From the IMG/VR virus record IMGVR_UViG_3300032050_000002: 64,000 nucleotides of DNA. One strand, written 5' to 3'. The stretch is from a virus. Lineage: Duplodnaviria; Caudoviricetes. Made by a program: the position numbers and the translations under genes. Shown here one piece after another: positions 33,717-39,555 of this stretch; the stretch's first letter is position 1; each line of letters begins with the position of its first letter. A model generated the notes under the pieces. That model was given only the letters and a program-made list of their open reading frames with translations, was not told the origin of the DNA and made no database searches.

Positions 33717-33896
33717 TTACTTTACTTCTTTTGTTGAGTCCGCCGCAACAACAGTTGCGGTGTCAACAGGTTTAACTGAATTAGTGTCAACCACAACTAC
33801 CGCAGTTGAATCTGTTTTAGGAGCCTCTGACTCACCACCTCCACAAGAAGTTAACGTTACCGTTAAAATTGCTAATACTAAAATTACTTTTTTCAT
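33717..33896 (-). CDS. 59-aa Bacteroidota-type lipoprotein (real ORF is opposite the + ORF listed in the track)
   Basis: Manual translation MKKVILVLAILTVTLTSCGGGESEAPKTDSTAVVVVDTNSVKPVDTATVVAADSTKEVK*; lipobox LTS/C. Confidence 0.8.
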   Translation of the reverse strand: MKKVILVLAILTVTLTSCGGGESEAPKTDSTAVVVVDTNSVKPVDTATVVAADSTKEVK

Positions 33897-33992
33897 TTTT
33901 TAAATTATTGTTTATTTCGTTTAATAAATAGTTGATTAAACCCGATAAGTCAACAAAATTTAATTTTTATTTTAAAAAATTTTATTTTTTTC

Positions 33993-34387
33993 TTGTTAAT
34001 TAAGATTTTTTTATTACCTTTGTAAAACATTTGAGGAAAGGTTAATATTTATAGTTTCTCGAATGAAAAAAAAAGTTTGAGAAAAATTTGGTAAATTAAA
34101 AAATTCTTCTTATCTTTGTAAAACAAATCGGGAATGTCCGATTAGTTCTTTGAAAAAAAAGTTTTAGAAAAATTTGGTAAATCCAAAAATAATTCTTACC
34201 TTTGTAAAAGAAAATCGGAGTAAAAAACTGATAGATTCTTTGAAAAAGAAGTTTAAGAAAAGTTTGACAGAACAGAAAATTTTTCTTAACTTTGTAAAGA
34301 GTTTGAAAGTGGGAATGAGGTCATAAAGATTCCTTACTTAGTAAGGTTATAAAGGTTCCTCACCACAATCAACTCGGTTCTTTGAAA
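33993..34387 (+). promoter_or_regulatory. Four tandem Bacteroidota sigma-A promoters with three hairpin + boxA-like elements
   Basis: -7 TAnnTTTG at 34015, 34111, 34197, 34287; -33 TTTG at 34087, 34173, 34263 (20-nt spacers); (G/A)TTCTTTGAAA at 34145, 34235, 34377. Confidence 0.85.
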
Positions 34388-34394
34388 TATTGAA

Positions 34395-35247
34395 TTATCC
34401 ATTCAGTCCTCGATTATGAGACCTTCGGGTTGATTATGAGGGGATACTGATAAATGATAATCGGCCGTATATGGTCGTTAAATAAACTACGAAAGTAGGA
34501 TAAAGTGGGGTCACCTGTGTTAGTGATTCTGCGGCTCGGGAAACTGAGCTCGAGTATACAAGTGGGATATCATCCGACCTTTAGTACTGAGGGCAACGCT
34601 TTAGGGAAAGTGGTTTGGTGACCGAGCAATGTGGATTGTTAGGTTGAGTTCGGAAGAACAATAAGAATAACTCATAGGAATCCTGTAAAAGGTGTGGTTA
34701 TCCGACCATATTATTGCGGTTTCCAATTTAAAAGTGGACTTAAAACCGAAAGGTAAGATGGAGAACGAGTGGTGTCGCTACCGTCCTTATTAACGACCCG
34801 CCAAGGTTGTGATATGAAGTAAACTTAAAGAATGGAGATGGGGACATTTCACGGAGTAGTTTGGCATTCAGTTGTTCAAAAGATGACTGAACCTAAGGCA
34901 GACCACTACTTCGATTAATCCACGACACGTACTTAAATAAACTAAAAATTTGTTCAAAGGAAAAGTGTCTGTCAGGTATCGATGAAAGGTGACTACATAG
35001 TAATGAGTCGTTCATTGCACACGAAGACCCCAAGTCTGAATGTAATCTTACCAAAAACCTCTAGTTCCGCAAGAACGAGTTGGGGAGGCATCCTCGAAGA
35101 GAGTTGAGTAATAAGAGAGTAATTGATACCTCAAGGAGTGGTTTACCTAAATAACCGTCACTGAGGAATACTTTCCAAAAAAAAGTGGAAATGTGAGGAA
35201 CTAATAATCTCACTAAAGGTTCTCAAGTAATGGTGTATTCTCAGCCA
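34395..35247 (+). ncRNA. Large (~850 nt) ornate structured RNA, GOLLD-like
   Basis: No credible ORF, raised GC, many UUCG/GNRA-capped hairpins (34421-30, 34487-98, 34514-29, 34745-54), long-range AGTGGT(34768)/ACCACT(34902), size, tRNA adjacency and a 3' end (GTATTCTCAG) resembling my recollection of GOLLD. Boundaries approximate. Confidence 0.7.
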
Positions 35248-35265
35248 TGATTTAACAAAAAATAG

Positions 35266-35340
35266 TGCGGGTCAGAGAAATGGTAACTCGTTAGGCTCAT
35301 AACCTAAAGACGGATGGTTCGATTCCATCACCCGCTACCA
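35266..35340 (+). tRNA. tRNA-Met (CAT), initiator-like, CCA encoded
   Basis: GCGGGT/ACCCGC acceptor with unpaired U1:U72, A11:U24, TTAGG-CTCATAA-CCTAA anticodon arm, GATGG-TTCGATT-CCATC T arm, ACCA end. Confidence 0.92.
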
Positions 35341-35400
35341 AGTGACTCCAATAGAAAGTGTTTGACTTTAACACTAAACGATAATGAGTTTAAACTTTTC

Positions 35401-35740
35401 ATCCAAAAACATAAGTTCGGTTGTTATATTGTGTGTTTTATAGTTTTTGTTGTTCACGATTTCATCCTGTGTAAGGAAAAAATGAATACAAAAAAACTGA
35501 TGTTGAGTCCTAAATACACGACTCACCCGTCTAAAGGAAAAAAACTGTACGAAACCGATTTTTTAGGGTGTGGTAGTTTGTGATAACCACAAGGTCTTCA
35601 GGTGATTCAAGAAAGACCGAAAACACACAAACGTAAATTGGTTTAACCAACGTCACAACTCACGTAAGTAGTTACAATATGGTTCACTCACCATAATAGT
35701 AAGGTTTAAAAGTTATCCTTGTGAAAGAAACTTATGGCTT
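35401..35740 (+). ncRNA. Unclassified ~330-nt multi-stem RNA candidate
   Basis: Long-range stems 35410-17/35729-36 and 35429-39/35620-30, possible pseudoknot 35417-22/35553-58, and at least six local hairpins. Confidence 0.65.
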
Positions 35741-35742
35741 AG

Positions 35743-35787
35743 AAGGGAGATATCGATTTAGCCAACGATGTCTCCCTTTTTTATTTT
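35743..35787 (+). terminator. Intrinsic terminator closing the ncRNA cluster
   Basis: AAGGGAGATATCG...CGATGTCTCCCTT followed by a T-run. Confidence 0.85.
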
Positions 35788-35812
35788 GTACTTTTTCATA
35801 TATTTATTTAAT

Positions 35813-36415
35813 ATGAGAAATTTCTTTTTTTATATTCTTTTTAGTTTATCACTATTAAAATCATTTTCTCAATGTAGCGGTAATTTAACTTTTACTTTAA
35901 CTCCATCCCCACCAGTCGGTGGTTATACTCCAGGAACAACAGTTAATGTCTGTGTTACTTTACAAAGTTTTACTCAAACAGGAAGTAATTGGTTTGAAGG
36001 TTTTGATATTAATTTAGGTTCAGGTTGGACTAATGTTACTCCGGTATCATCACCCGCAAATTGTGGTGGAAATAGTACTGGTGGTCAATGGTTATGGATG
36101 ACATCAGTAACATCAGACGCGACCCCATCAGTTACCGTGGGACCCGGATATTTTTTTGATAGAAATAGTGATGGAAATCCTGGAAATGATTATGGTGATA
36201 GTAATGGTTCAAATTGTACTTGGACTATGTGTTTTAGTGTTAGGGTTTCTCAAAATTGTATTCCTCAAAATTTATTAATAGAAGTGGCTGCGGCTGCTGA
36301 CGGAGTTTGGGGTAGTTACACAAGTACAGCATGTGATAATGTTAATTACGTTAATATATACACAGGAACAAGTAGCGCAACTCCTGTTGTTTTAGGTGCT
36401 ATAAGTCATAATTAA
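35813..36415 (+). CDS. Secreted beta-rich protein, C-terminus LGAISHN
   Basis: Bacteroidota-type signal peptide ending SFSQ/C; paired Cys; start reassigned to MRNFF. Confidence 0.75.
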   Translation: MRNFFFYILFSLSLLKSFSQCSGNLTFTLTPSPPVGGYTPGTTVNVCVTLQSFTQTGSNWFEGFDINLGSGWTNVTPVSSPANCGGNSTGGQWLWMTSVTSDATPSVTVGPGYFFDRNSDGNPGNDYGDSNGSNCTWTMCFSVRVSQNCIPQNLLIEVAAAADGVWGSYTSTACDNVNYVNIYTGTSSATPVVLGAISHN

Positions 36416-37963: not shown

Positions 37964-38350
37964 TGGTGGAGATATTGGGAGTCGAACCCAAGTGCTAAAC
38001 ATCCCAAGTATTAAGGACTACATGCTTAGGATAAAGTTTTCTAACTTTCCAAAAATAGTTAATTCGTTCTTCACCATCGTAAATTAACAACCAATGAATG
38101 ACTCGATTTAGGGTTCAGTCATTTTTCCACCTCTATTTAGACTCCTGTTTCTAGGTTATATGTCCACCGACCCAATTGTGTGACTTAATCTAATTAAGCC
38201 ACAGCTACTTCTTCAGTACGAATTAATCCTACAGAAGTAAGTTTGTTGATTACGTTGCCGTATATCGATTTGAATCAGTTTTAACAAGGTTAACTCAGCC
38301 TTGACATGCCCCGAATAGTTGATTATGCTAGTCGATACCATTTTATCCCC
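37964..38350 (-). ncRNA. ssrA: tmRNA, tag (A)GNVINKLTSVGLIRTEEVAVA*
   Basis: 5' GGGGATAAAATGGTATCGAC; 3' GGGTTCGACTCCC...CTCCACCA tRNA-Ala-like domain; resume codon GGC after ATATAC; tag ORF 38259-38194. Confidence 0.95.
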
Positions 38351-38354
38351 ATAA

Positions 38355-38406
38355 TGTTAAAGAACTTTCTGAATACAAATATACAACAAAAACTTGAAAT
38401 AACAAA
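38355..38406 (-). promoter_or_regulatory. tmRNA promoter (TTTG-N19-TATATTTG) followed by boxA GTTCTTTAACA
   Basis: Minus strand: -33 at 38406-03, -7 at 38383-76, boxA at 38365-55. Confidence 0.8.
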
Positions 38407-38433: not shown

Positions 38434-39555
38434 ATGTCCAATAGATTGCAAAATAACAAAATAAGACGGATTTTTGAGTCTGACGAGCCTCAAACAACCT
38501 ATCAAAAACTATTAAAAATCGCTCAAAGTACGGAAGACCCTAATATTACCTTTGATGAGGAGATTGTTTTTAATTTTACATACAATCAAAGAACACCTAG
38601 AAAAAGTATGATTACTTTAAACTTTGATACTGATGAAGATTATTTCCAACTATTCTATGAAACTGAAGACAATCCAAAATATATGGAAAGAATTATTAAT
38701 GATAGGAGATATTATGATAGGTTTGAATTTGAATCTTCAGATTATATTTGGGAAGATTGGAAAGAAGGATATATACTTATGGATTTTAATGATGAAAATA
38801 TTTTAAAACTTAAAGATATTTTACTAATGGTAAATCCTGAATTGGCGGATTTTAATCCTAATCTAGATGACAAATCCTCATCAATCGCGAGATTTTTACA
38901 CAACACATTTGAGCGTGAAATTGATTATATTTTAGATGAACGTTGGCAATTAGTTAATGATTGTAAAGTACAATCGGAACAGAACAATATTAAAAAAGAT
39001 ATGTGTGATAGGTTATTTAACTATGGTATTTTTAGTAAGGGGGATTGTTTTGAAACTTACGTAACATCAGTTAATATTTTAATATCTTTATACGAAGAAA
39101 CCAAAAATTTTGACGTAGATTTATATGAAATGTTAAAACAAGTGGCAATTAATACACAAGCCCCTGATTATTACGAATATTATTATGAAACAAGTTGTGA
39201 TAATTGGGAGGAAGTTTCCACGGCATTTAATCAAGAGATTTCAAAAAGACTCGATGAAATTTTGGACAGAATTGAAAATAGTGACGAATTTAATTTTAAT
39301 AGAGATTTATTTAAACTGTATAGTAAAGAAGTTTACAATAACTACCAAATTAATAGATGGTATGAATTACCATATAACAAAGAATATTCATTTCGTTTAG
39401 TGAGAGTTGAACCAGCAAACGATAGAATTGTTTTATTTTTTCAAAAACCTAATAGTCAACAAGAAAAAAGAAGTTATAATTTAGAAGGTTTTATTGACTT
39501 TTTACATAATCCGGAACTTTTTGAAAATAAAATTAGGAAAATAAGAAAAATCTAA
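38434..39555 (+). CDS. Hypothetical acidic protein
   Basis: ORF track. Confidence 0.7.
   Translation: MSNRLQNNKIRRIFESDEPQTTYQKLLKIAQSTEDPNITFDEEIVFNFTYNQRTPRKSMITLNFDTDEDYFQLFYETEDNPKYMERIINDRRYYDRFEFESSDYIWEDWKEGYILMDFNDENILKLKDILLMVNPELADFNPNLDDKSSSIARFLHNTFEREIDYILDERWQLVNDCKVQSEQNNIKKDMCDRLFNYGIFSKGDCFETYVTSVNILISLYEETKNFDVDLYEMLKQVAINTQAPDYYEYYYETSCDNWEEVSTAFNQEISKRLDEILDRIENSDEFNFNRDLFKLYSKEVYNNYQINRWYELPYNKEYSFRLVRVEPANDRIVLFFQKPNSQQEKRSYNLEGFIDFLHNPELFENKIRKIRKI

What the first reader, a model, noticed from the sequence alone, without database searches (positions are those of the whole stretch)
33993..35787. A phage stable-RNA operon that mimics a host rRNA operon
Seen: four tandem Bacteroidota promoters about 90 nt apart; three hairpin + TTCTTTGAAA units (hairpins AATCGG/CCGATT at 34126-43 and ATCGG/CTGAT at 34214-32, boxes at 34145, 34235, 34377); then ~850-nt structured RNA, tRNA-Met, ~330-nt structured RNA and a strong terminator. 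The tmRNA leader independently has GTTCTTTAACA right after its promoter. Known: rRNA operons use tandem promoters and boxB/boxA (consensus TGCTCTTTAACA) to recruit NusB/NusE/NusA/NusG for antitermination and co-transcriptional folding. Inference: the phage routes its giant RNAs through the host rRNA transcription and folding machinery, making them at rRNA-like levels. I know no description of this for GOLLD-type loci.
Basis: partly seen in the sequence, partly recalled or inferred. Interest (0 to 1): 0.85.

Follow-up and report, generated by a model that had tools for sequence, protein, structure and literature searches.

The report
rRNA-style boxA leader before phage GOLLD
A lake phage of Bacteroidota puts, in front of its giant GOLLD RNA and its tmRNA, the same tandem promoters and hairpin-plus-GTTCTTTGAAA signal that its hosts place before their ribosomal RNA genes. 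All 86 related GOLLD loci examined keep this signal, so these RNAs are probably made by the host's rRNA transcription (Nus/antitermination) machinery.

Summary
Window 33993-35787 holds four tandem Bacteroidota-type promoters. Three of them are followed by a hairpin and (G/A)TTCTTTGAAA. Then come GOLLD (Rfam, 317 bits), tRNA-Met, a transcribed 0.4-kb tail and a terminator. The tmRNA leader carries GTTCTTTAACA.

- **Host match.** I derived the host signal from 102 Bacteroidota 16S leaders. GTTCTTTGA is their commonest 9-mer, and the consensus is AAA-GTTCTTTGAAA-nnTTGnAA. In three complete genomes, 20 of 20 16S genes carry it, and it is at background level elsewhere.
- **Conservation.** All 86 phage GOLLD loci from IMG/VR with enough upstream sequence have the box about 10 nt before GOLLD (45 distinct contexts, 29 with tandem copies). 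The hairpin shows compensatory changes.
- **Other RNAs.** All 8 distinct phage tmRNA leaders have the box, and so do several tRNA leaders.
- **Not part of the fold.** GOLLDs in Caulobacter, Vibrio and Mycobacterium phages lack it.
- **Expression.** Lake metatranscriptome contigs cover the leader, GOLLD and the tail, but not the flanking genes.

Nus-factor recruitment, antitermination and "rRNA-like levels" remain inference. Phage use of boxA is known (lambda, T7). This scan noted boxA-led structured-RNA operons in other phages before (e1-443042, e1-1195242). I found no paper linking it to GOLLD.

The parts
33993..34022 (+). Promoter P1: -7 TACCTTTG at 34015-22, with only a weak -33 (TTGT)
   Evidence: sequence
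34028..34065 (+). Hairpin after P1, followed by an A run and no box. The same box-less first unit is seen in relatives L130, L155 and L195.
   Evidence: RNAfold -10.4 kcal/mol; relatives
34087..34118 (+). Promoter P2: TTTG, 20 nt, TATCTTTG, preceded by an A-rich AAAAAAGTTT stretch as in host rrn promoters
34126..34143 (+). boxB-like hairpin (7 bp)
   Evidence: covariation
34145..34155 (+). boxA-like box 1, GTTCTTTGAAA
34173..34204 (+). Promoter P3: TTTG, 20 nt, TACCTTTG
34214..34232 (+). boxB-like hairpin (5 bp, long loop)
34235..34245 (+). boxA-like box 2, ATTCTTTGAAA (first base A instead of G)
34263..34294 (+). Promoter P4: TTTG, 20 nt, TAACTTTG
34299..34375 (+). Long compound hairpin between P4 and the proximal box
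   Evidence: RNAfold; the same class is seen in L175
34377..34387 (+). Proximal boxA-like box 3, GTTCTTTGAAA, followed by TATTGAA. Homology to related phages begins exactly here.
34395..35247 (+). GOLLD RNA. The 5' domain runs from the TTATCC/GGATAA helix (34395-400 with 34498-503). The 3' domain 34852-35247 is the part matched by Rfam.
   Evidence: RNA contigs
35266..35340 (+). tRNA-Met (CAT)
35341..35744 (+). Transcribed 3' segment of unknown nature. It matches no Rfam family and its folding z-score is -0.21. The core 35529-35673 is conserved in 8 related loci.
35745..35787 (+). Intrinsic terminator: 11-bp stem, 10-nt loop, TTTTTTATTTT. RNA coverage stops here.
   Evidence: sequence
38351..38406 (-). 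tmRNA promoter (TTTG 38406-03, TATATTTG 38383-76) and leader box GTTCTTTAACA (38365-55), 4 nt before the mature tmRNA (37964-38350)
   Evidence: 8 of 8 phage tmRNA leaders alike

Best explanation
The leader is a phage copy of the Bacteroidota rRNA-operon control cassette. Shown by sequence comparison: tandem strong host-type promoters, each followed in the transcript by a small hairpin (the boxB position) and by the host's rrn boxA sequence. Inferred: host RNA polymerase starts at P1-P4. When the nascent GUUCUUUGAAA emerges, it is bound by host NusB-S10. Together with NusA, NusG and other factors, this converts the polymerase into an rrn-type antitermination complex. That complex would carry transcription through roughly 1.4 kb of untranslated, highly structured RNA (GOLLD, tRNA-Met and the 3' segment) up to the strong terminator, without Rho-dependent or hairpin-induced stops. 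As proposed for rRNA, it could also hold the 5' end at the exit channel and help co-transcriptional folding. The same box marks the phage's other promoter-driven stable RNAs (tmRNA and some tRNA units), so it acts as a general 'stable RNA' tag in this phage lineage.
For: Host identity.
- GTTCTTTGA is the commonest 9-mer in 102 Bacteroidota 16S leaders (47 exact). The consensus from 91 leaders is AAA-GTTCTTTGAAA-nnTTGnAA.
- In three complete genomes, 20 of 20 16S genes have GTTCTTTGAAR 100-195 nt upstream. The other 43 genome matches compare with 47 for the reversed-pattern control.

Architecture.
- 73 of 102 host leaders have at least 2 TAnnTTTG motifs, and some (L031, L008) repeat promoter-hairpin-GTTCTTnGAAAA units just as the phage does.
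- The phage promoter unit aligns to host rrn units at 86% over 50 nt, 58 bits against a maximum of 37.9 in shuffles.

Conservation.
- 86 of 86 IMG/VR GOLLD loci have the box, in 45 distinct contexts, and 29 have at least 2 boxes.
- 14 of 14 sampled loci are Rfam GOLLD.
- The box is kept in front of three different 5'-domain types.
- Homology between phages begins at the box.

Hairpin. The four core pairs are paired in 23 of 23 distinct leaders, and three of these pairs show double-sided changes. The covariation score is 0.29 against 0.116, with 0 of 500 shuffles reaching it.

Other stable RNAs.
- 8 of 8 distinct phage tmRNA leaders have the box.
- 10 of 51 non-GOLLD boxes lie within 150 nt upstream of a tRNA or tmRNA, where only 1.4% of positions lie.
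- In LR745206 a hairpin and box precede both a tRNA and GOLLD.

Specificity. None of the 16 other promoter patterns in the window has a box.

Expression. An exact metatranscriptome contig spans 34157-34498, which covers P3, P4, two hairpin-box units and the GOLLD 5' end. GOLLD and the tail are covered in 4 runs, and the flanking genes are not.

Precedent. B. subtilis rrn leaders have a small 5' hairpin followed by AUGAUCUUUGAAA, which binds NusB (PMC13753749). boxA is necessary and sufficient to form the rrn complex in E. coli (PMC10250234).

Host factor. Two related megaphages encode no NusB, while the B. thetaiotaomicron control does.
Against: - There is no biochemical or genetic evidence that GTTCTTTGAAA binds NusB-S10 or antiterminates in any Bacteroidota, host or phage. 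The whole mechanism rests on homology to E. coli and B. subtilis.
- One relative (LR756502) has promoters and a hairpin but no box.
- GOLLDs of Caulobacter, Vibrio and Mycobacterium phages show no box within 1.3 kb upstream of the 3' domain.
- Most host Bacteroidota tmRNA genes have no box (7 of 9), so the phage uses it more widely than the host does.
- A 390-nt tmRNA hardly needs protection from Rho.
- A position-weight-matrix scan of the window alone does not separate the boxes from chance hits.
- The related loci are phylogenetically close, so the counts overstate independence.
- Contigs cannot show strand, transcript ends or levels.
Confidence: 0.7

Rival explanations
1. The box, with or without the hairpin, is an RNA processing or stability determinant. 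It would be a cleavage or entry site for a host RNase that trims the leader from GOLLD, tmRNA and tRNA precursors, and would not be a Nus-loading site.
For: The box sits 3-10 nt from the mature 5' end of tmRNA and from the first GOLLD helix. The leader contig has a lower word depth (37.8) than the GOLLD body (about 200) in the same run. Host rrn leaders are also processed near boxA.
Against: The host motif is restricted to rrn leaders and matches the NusB-binding boxA of B. subtilis and E. coli (PMC13753749). Upstream tandem copies lie far from any mature end. RNase P alone can account for tmRNA and tRNA 5' ends. Contig depth is a poor measure of RNA level.
Confidence: 0.12
2. The box is a binding site, on RNA or DNA, for a phage-encoded factor (an N-like antiterminator or a regulator of stable-RNA promoters). 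It would only resemble the host boxA.
For: The phage uses the box on tmRNA and tRNA leaders, where most hosts do not. The hairpin next to the box recalls lambda nut, where N binds boxB.
Against: The box is identical to the host rrn consensus, including the flanking TTGAA. The hairpin loop and stem sequences vary. The box lies 10 to 82 nt from the promoter, and in LR745206 it follows a tRNA, which argues against a promoter-bound DNA site. No candidate factor was identified.
Confidence: 0.08
3. Each hairpin plus T-rich box is a weak intrinsic terminator or attenuator that insulates the tandem promoters from one another.
For: The consensus scan lists 34126-43 plus AGTTCTTTGA as terminator-like.
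Against: The stems are weak (-5 to -8 kcal/mol) and the T tract is interrupted by a conserved C and G. Boxes occur without any hairpin in tmRNA leaders and in L161, L185 and L198. An RNA contig reads through two such units. The same unit precedes host 16S genes.
Confidence: 0.04
4. The box is simply the conserved 5' end of the GOLLD fold.
For: It lies at a fixed position about 10 nt before the first helix in 86 of 86 loci.
Against: It is absent from GOLLDs of four phages of other phyla. It is present before three unrelated 5'-domain types, before tmRNAs and tRNAs, and in tandem copies behind upstream promoters. No pairing partner was found.
Confidence: 0.03

Closest known systems
Bacterial rrn operon leader (tandem promoters P1/P2, then boxB-boxA-boxC, giving the rrn antitermination complex with NusA/B/E/G, SuhB and S4)
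   Same: Tandem promoters, a hairpin followed by boxA in that order just after the promoter, a long untranslated structured product, a co-transcribed tRNA, and a box identical to the host's own rrn box (PMC10250234).
   Different: The product is GOLLD, not rRNA. No boxC or leader-trailer helix was found, and there is no second box in a spacer in this window. The promoter-hairpin-box unit is repeated three times. It is carried by a phage.
B. subtilis rrn leader: small 5' hairpin followed by boxA-like AUGAUCUUUGAAA, which binds NusB (PMC13753749)
   Same: Nearly the same box (UCUUUGAAA core), immediately after a small hairpin at the 5' end of the transcript.
   Different: Different phylum. Binding to NusB was shown there and is not shown here.
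Phage T7 early region (tandem host promoters A1-A3 followed by a boxA antitermination element) and lambda nut sites
   Same: A phage uses strong host-polymerase promoters plus boxA to make host RNA polymerase processive (PMC3709561 for T7; PMC10250234 for lambda).
   Different: Those elements drive early mRNAs, and lambda needs its own N protein with boxB placed after boxA. Here the cargo is stable non-coding RNA, the order is the rrn order, and no phage factor is evident.
boxA outside rrn in bacteria (suhB leader, CRISPR arrays)
   Same: Re-use of the Nus-loading signal on non-ribosomal, poorly translated or untranslated transcripts (PMC12360218, PMC13753749).
   Different: Those are cellular genes of Proteobacteria. 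This case is a phage of Bacteroidota and giant structured RNAs.
GOLLD RNA loci (RF02032; 14-mer nanocage, PMC12286853)
   Same: Full Rfam match, adjacency to tRNA-Met, and phage context.
   Different: The published descriptions I could read do not mention promoters, leaders or antitermination. The box is specific to the Bacteroidota-phage lineage of GOLLD.

Membership tests
rrn-type boxA / Nus-factor antitermination leader | Sequence equals the boxA of the host group's own rrn leaders | tested here: met
   The host consensus AAA-GTTCTTTGAAA-nnTTGnAA comes from 91 of 101 Bacteroidota leaders, and 20 of 20 16S genes in 3 genomes carry the box. The phage box at 34377-87 plus TATTGAA matches it.
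rrn-type boxA / Nus-factor antitermination leader | Lies on the sense strand in the transcribed leader, downstream of the promoter | tested here: met
   The boxes lie 26, 30 and 82 nt after the -7 motifs. An exact RNA contig covers 34157-34498. Strand and start sites were not shown directly.
rrn-type boxA / Nus-factor antitermination leader | Hairpin (boxB position) immediately 5' of boxA | tested here: met
   24 of 31 short leaders have a 5-8 bp hairpin, with compensatory changes. It is not obligatory: it is absent in tmRNA leaders and in 3 GOLLD leaders.
rrn-type boxA / Nus-factor antitermination leader | Conserved in orthologous loci while the flanks diverge | tested here: met
   86 of 86 loci, 45 distinct contexts. 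LR756502 is an exception.
rrn-type boxA / Nus-factor antitermination leader | Bound by NusB-S10 | not testable with these tools
   NusB (PF01029) is present in the B. thetaiotaomicron control and absent from two related megaphages. No binding data exist.
rrn-type boxA / Nus-factor antitermination leader | Confers read-through of Rho-dependent or intrinsic terminators | not testable with these tools
   The only evidence is indirect: RNA contigs reach from the leader to the terminator region in pieces.
rrn-type boxA / Nus-factor antitermination leader | boxC / leader-trailer helix downstream of boxA | tested here: not met
   The duplex energy of 34370-34400 against three trailer regions is no better than shuffles. 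This feature is not required for Nus loading (PMC10250234).
GOLLD RNA (RF02032) | Covariance-model score above Rfam's gathering threshold over the full model | tested here: met
   317.7 bits against a threshold of 150, model positions 1-416.
Bacteroidota housekeeping promoter (-33 TTTG / -7 TAnnTTTG) | Both motifs present with a spacer of about 19-21 nt | tested here: met
   P2, P3, P4 and the tmRNA promoter meet it. P1 has only the -7 motif. Promoter activity was not tested.

The most novel reading that the evidence does not exclude
In this lineage of freshwater Bacteroidota phages, boxA is a phage-wide tag placed behind every dedicated stable-RNA promoter (GOLLD, tmRNA, tRNA units and further unannotated large RNAs). 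Loading of the host rrn antitermination/chaperone complex would then be required for GOLLD to fold and assemble into its 14-mer cage, and not merely for read-through. On this reading, GOLLD biogenesis is mechanistically coupled to the host's ribosome-synthesis machinery and growth-rate control.
Probability: 0.3. Interest if true: 0.8.

Novelty: new member of a known kind. Interest (0 to 1): 0.62.

Why it matters
GOLLD is one of the largest bacterial and phage RNAs, with a solved cage structure but no known function or regulation. A conserved host rrn-type promoter/boxA leader gives the first concrete statement about how it is made. That statement can be tested with standard tools: NusB binding, box mutants, Rho inhibition.

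It also suggests how to express GOLLD correctly in vivo. In addition, it defines the Bacteroidota rrn boxA consensus from data.

Finally, it offers a search signature (TAnnTTTG promoter, optional hairpin, GTTCTTTGA) for finding other phage non-coding RNA operons. One such candidate turned up here, in L142.

Tried and rejected
- **Weight-matrix scan of the window.** The matrix was built from host leaders. Single-site scores overlap those of shuffled sequence in this AT-rich DNA, so I relied on position and conservation instead.
- **Leader-trailer pairing.** I found none.
- **NusB gene in related megaphages.** None was found. The window itself could not be searched this way.
- **The window's whole genome.** It is not held.
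- **GOLLD in phages of other phyla.** No box lies within 1.3 kb upstream of the 3' domain. The true operon starts were not mapped, so a distal box cannot be excluded.
- **ROOL.** Some rows of the published alignment start with CUUUGA-type sequence. The one genomic ROOL I could fetch (L. salivarius pMP118) has no box. This was left as a lead.
- **Host tmRNA leaders.** Most Bacteroidota-type ones have no leader at all. The 'phylum' sample was taxonomically mixed.
- **Folding of the 3' segment.** There is no signal. Its 89-aa ORF has no Pfam match.
- **Literature.** No paper in the library holds both GOLLD and boxA in the relevant sense. Weinberg 2009 and Savalia 2010 were not available.
Full report
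**Anatomy.** The window comes from an uncultivated freshwater phage: no cellular genome is held for it, and its relatives are IMG/VR viral contigs and two 0.63-Mb megaphages. Rfam finds GOLLD at 34852-35247 (317.7 bits), tRNA-Met at 35266-35340, and a tmRNA at 37964-38350 on the minus strand.

Upstream of GOLLD lie four Bacteroidota-type -7 motifs (TAnnTTTG) at 34015, 34111, 34197 and 34287. The last three each have TTTG exactly 20 nt upstream. They sit in a 90-nt tandem repeat.
- P2 is followed by a 7-bp hairpin (34126-43) and GTTCTTTGAAA (34145-55).
- P3 is followed by a hairpin (34214-32) and ATTCTTTGAAA (34235-45).
- P4 is followed by a long compound hairpin (34299-375) and GTTCTTTGAAA (34377-87).
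- P1 has a hairpin but no box.

The first GOLLD helix (TTATCC at 34395-400, pairing with GGATAA at 34498-503) starts 7 nt after the last box. Behind the tRNA come about 400 nt and a strong terminator (35745-87). The tmRNA has its own promoter (TTTG 38406-03, TATATTTG 38383-76), followed 10 nt later by GTTCTTTAACA (38365-55) and, 4 nt after that, by the mature 5' end.

**Chance.** With one mismatch allowed, the 10-mer is not over-represented in the window (25 found, 31.5 expected). The signal therefore lies in where the copies sit. Three of the four exact copies are in this 243-nt leader. Of 20 complete promoter patterns on both strands, only P2, P3, P4 and the tmRNA promoter have a box in the next 110 nt. 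Two of the three GOLLD boxes are repeat copies and are not independent.

**Does it match the host signal?** I fetched 120 Bacteroidota 16S 5' ends with flanks, which gave 102 leaders of at least 300 nt.
- GTTCTTTGA is their most frequent 9-mer (47 leaders), ahead of the promoter words, and it lies mostly 100-150 nt before the 16S gene.
- An iterated matrix places a box in 91 of 101 leaders, with consensus AAA-GTTCTTTGAAA-nnTTGnAA. Flavobacteriaceae use GTTCATTGAAAATATTGAAATTGACAGCG.
- The phage's proximal box with its flank (GTTCTTTGAAATATTGAA) closely matches several host leaders (L009, L047, L079, L105: GTTCTTTGAAAATATTGAA).
- In three complete genomes, all 20 16S genes carry GTTCTTTGAAR 100-195 nt upstream on the same strand. 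The other 43 matches compare with 47 for the reversed-pattern control. In hosts the motif is therefore essentially an rrn-leader signal.
- Host leaders also share the architecture. 73 of 102 have two or more -7 motifs, and some (L031, L008) repeat a unit of promoter, hairpin and GTTCTTnGAAAA two or three times before the final GTTCTTTGAAG.
- The phage promoter unit (A-rich AAAAAAGTTT stretch, AAATTTGG, A-rich spacer, -7) aligns to such units at 86% over 50 nt, 58 bits against at most 37.9 in 30 shuffles.

**Is it conserved?** Two pattern scans of IMG/VR returned 100 loci. Three of them were chance pattern matches, not GOLLD (which scanned L252 and L144; L263 was excluded because its flank is nearly identical to that of L252).
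- Of the rest, all 86 with at least 900 nt upstream have G[CT]TCTTT[AGT]A at the 5' edge of GOLLD. These fall into 45 distinct sequence contexts, and 29 loci have two to four boxes behind tandem promoters.
- Fourteen loci sampled across leader types are all Rfam GOLLD at 310-335 bits.
- The typical leader reads: -33 motif, TAACTTTG, taaaac, a 5-8 bp hairpin, 2-4 nt, GTTCTTTGAAA, about 8 nt, then GOLLD.
- Stem sequences differ (ATCGG/CCGAT, TCAGG/CCTGA, TTCGG/CCGAA, CTTGG/CCAAG, ATCAG/CTGAT). In 23 distinct leaders the four core pairs are always paired, and three of them change on both sides. The covariation score is 0.29 against 0.116 in shuffles (0 of 500), and it collapses when the partner is slid.
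- A few leaders have no hairpin, so the box is the constant part.
- Megaphage LR745206 has hairpin-plus-box both after a promoter in front of a tRNA and directly in front of GOLLD. LR756502 has the promoter and hairpin but no box.

**Is the box part of GOLLD?** Several results argue that it is not.
- It precedes three unrelated 5'-domain types.
- It is repeated behind upstream promoters.
- It is absent within 1.3 kb upstream of the 3' domain in Caulobacter phage phiCbK, Vibrio phages VspSw_1 and PG07, and Mycobacterium phage PegLeg. The coordinates for these came from the alignment in PMC12286853.
- It occurs before other stable RNAs of the same phages. All eight distinct phage tmRNA leaders have a promoter, 10-18 nt, GTTC[TA]TT[GA]Ann, 3-5 nt, then GGGG.
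- 10 of 51 boxes outside GOLLD leaders lie within 150 nt upstream of a tRNA or tmRNA, a zone that holds 1.4% of positions.
- BLAST homology between this phage and its nearest relatives starts exactly at 34377.

By contrast, most Bacteroidota-type host tmRNA genes start 5-15 nt after the -7 motif and have no box.

**Expression.** Twenty public runs hold the stretch, six of them freshwater metatranscriptomes. In four of those, exact contigs cover GOLLD 34482-35107 (word depth about 90-280) and the 3' segment 35359-35762 (about 80-225). In one run a contig covers 34157-34498, that is P3, P4, two hairpin-box units and the GOLLD 5' end (depth 38). Nothing lies on 33861-34034 or 35775-36200.

This shows that the unit is present as RNA well above its neighbours. 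It also shows that transcripts from upstream promoters read through downstream units, and that coverage stops at the terminator. Contigs cannot give strand, ends or levels, so 'rRNA-like levels' and a single precursor remain unshown.

**Mechanism.** What is shown is a sequence and architecture match to host rrn leaders, conservation, and transcription. What is inferred from established knowledge is the following chain.
- boxA RNA is bound by NusB-S10 and is necessary and sufficient to assemble the rrn antitermination complex in E. coli. That complex resists Rho and hairpin-dependent termination and is thought to chaperone folding (PMC10250234, PMC12360218).
- A hairpin followed by AUGAUCUUUGAAA in B. 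subtilis rrn leaders binds NusB (PMC13753749).
- By analogy, the phage loads the host Nus complex on its untranslated RNA operons.
- Two related megaphages encode no NusB, which fits reliance on the host protein.

**Rivals.** A processing or stability signal, a site for a phage factor, weak terminators, and a part of the GOLLD fold are weighed in the rival list. None explains the identity to the host rrn box together with the distribution seen.

**Known or new.** Phage use of boxA is established for lambda nut sites and for T7, where tandem host promoters are followed by a boxA element (PMC3709561). boxA is also known outside rrn (the suhB leader and CRISPR arrays). Earlier agents of this scan described boxA-led structured-RNA operons in other phages (e1-443042, e1-1195242). 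No paper in the searchable library links boxA to GOLLD, and the cryo-EM paper does not discuss promoters or leaders. I therefore class this as a new member of a known kind: the rrn-type leader applied to GOLLD, tmRNA and tRNA units of Bacteroidota phages.

**Limits.**
- The host of this phage is not identified beyond promoter type.
- The related loci are evolutionarily close, so 86 of 86 is fewer independent events than it sounds.
- The Bacteroidota boxA itself has not been tested biochemically, as far as I could find.

Noticed in passing
L142:8151-9400 (- strand); homologues in L140:5315-6830, L165, L248, L258, L262, L192: A promoter (TTTG / TATCTTTG) plus GTTCTTTGATA leads into about 1.2 kb with no ORF over 70 aa and no Rfam match. 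GC is 0.42 against 0.36 for the locus. The stretch is conserved at 77-91% in other GOLLD phages. In L140 the same sequence follows a tRNA without its own promoter or box. It is a candidate further large phage RNA.
   Followed up: partly
window 35341-35744: The segment between tRNA-Met and the terminator is present in lake RNA libraries at depths comparable to GOLLD, and its core (35529-35673) is conserved in 8 related loci. However, it folds no better than shuffles (z = -0.21), matches no Rfam family, and its 89-aa ORF has no Pfam hit. In L155, L168 and L175 the homologous segment begins with GTTCTTTAATG.
   Followed up: partly
L222, L226, L246, L224, L232, L228, L234 (bacterial tmRNA loci): In several non-Bacteroidota-looking genomes of the sample, GTTCTTTGAT or a near variant directly abuts the mature tmRNA 5' end (GGGG). 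A boxA-like word in ssrA leaders may therefore be wider than phages.
   Followed up: no
Supplementary ROOL alignment of PMC12286853; L268 (L. salivarius pMP118): A subset of ROOL rows begin with UCUUUGAAAA, UUCUUUGACAA, CUUUGAGAAA, AUUGAAAAUU or AACUUUAAAC. This looks as if a boxA-like word sits at the 5' edge of some ROOL RNAs. The L. salivarius ROOL has none.
   Followed up: partly
L264 (Caulobacter phage phiCbK), about 600 nt upstream of the GOLLD 3' domain: GOLLD here appears to have its own Caulobacter-type promoter (TTGACG, 15 nt, GCTAGAAC) followed by a short hairpin, with no boxA-like word.
   Followed up: no
L140:3348-3409: A freshwater-1 RNA (RF02979, 87.7 bits) lies inside the tRNA array of a GOLLD phage.
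   Followed up: no
L031, L039, L019, L066, L068: MAGs labelled Eubacteriales, Clostridia, Metamycoplasmataceae, Microcoleus and Saccharibacteria matched the search pattern, a 16S 5'-end sequence chosen as typical of Bacteroidota. L031 also shows Bacteroidota-type promoters. These are likely binning contaminants.
   Followed up: no
window 38594 (- strand): A further GTTCTTTGATT lies about 230 nt upstream of the tmRNA promoter, antisense to ORF 38434-39555. It is probably a chance match.
   Followed up: no
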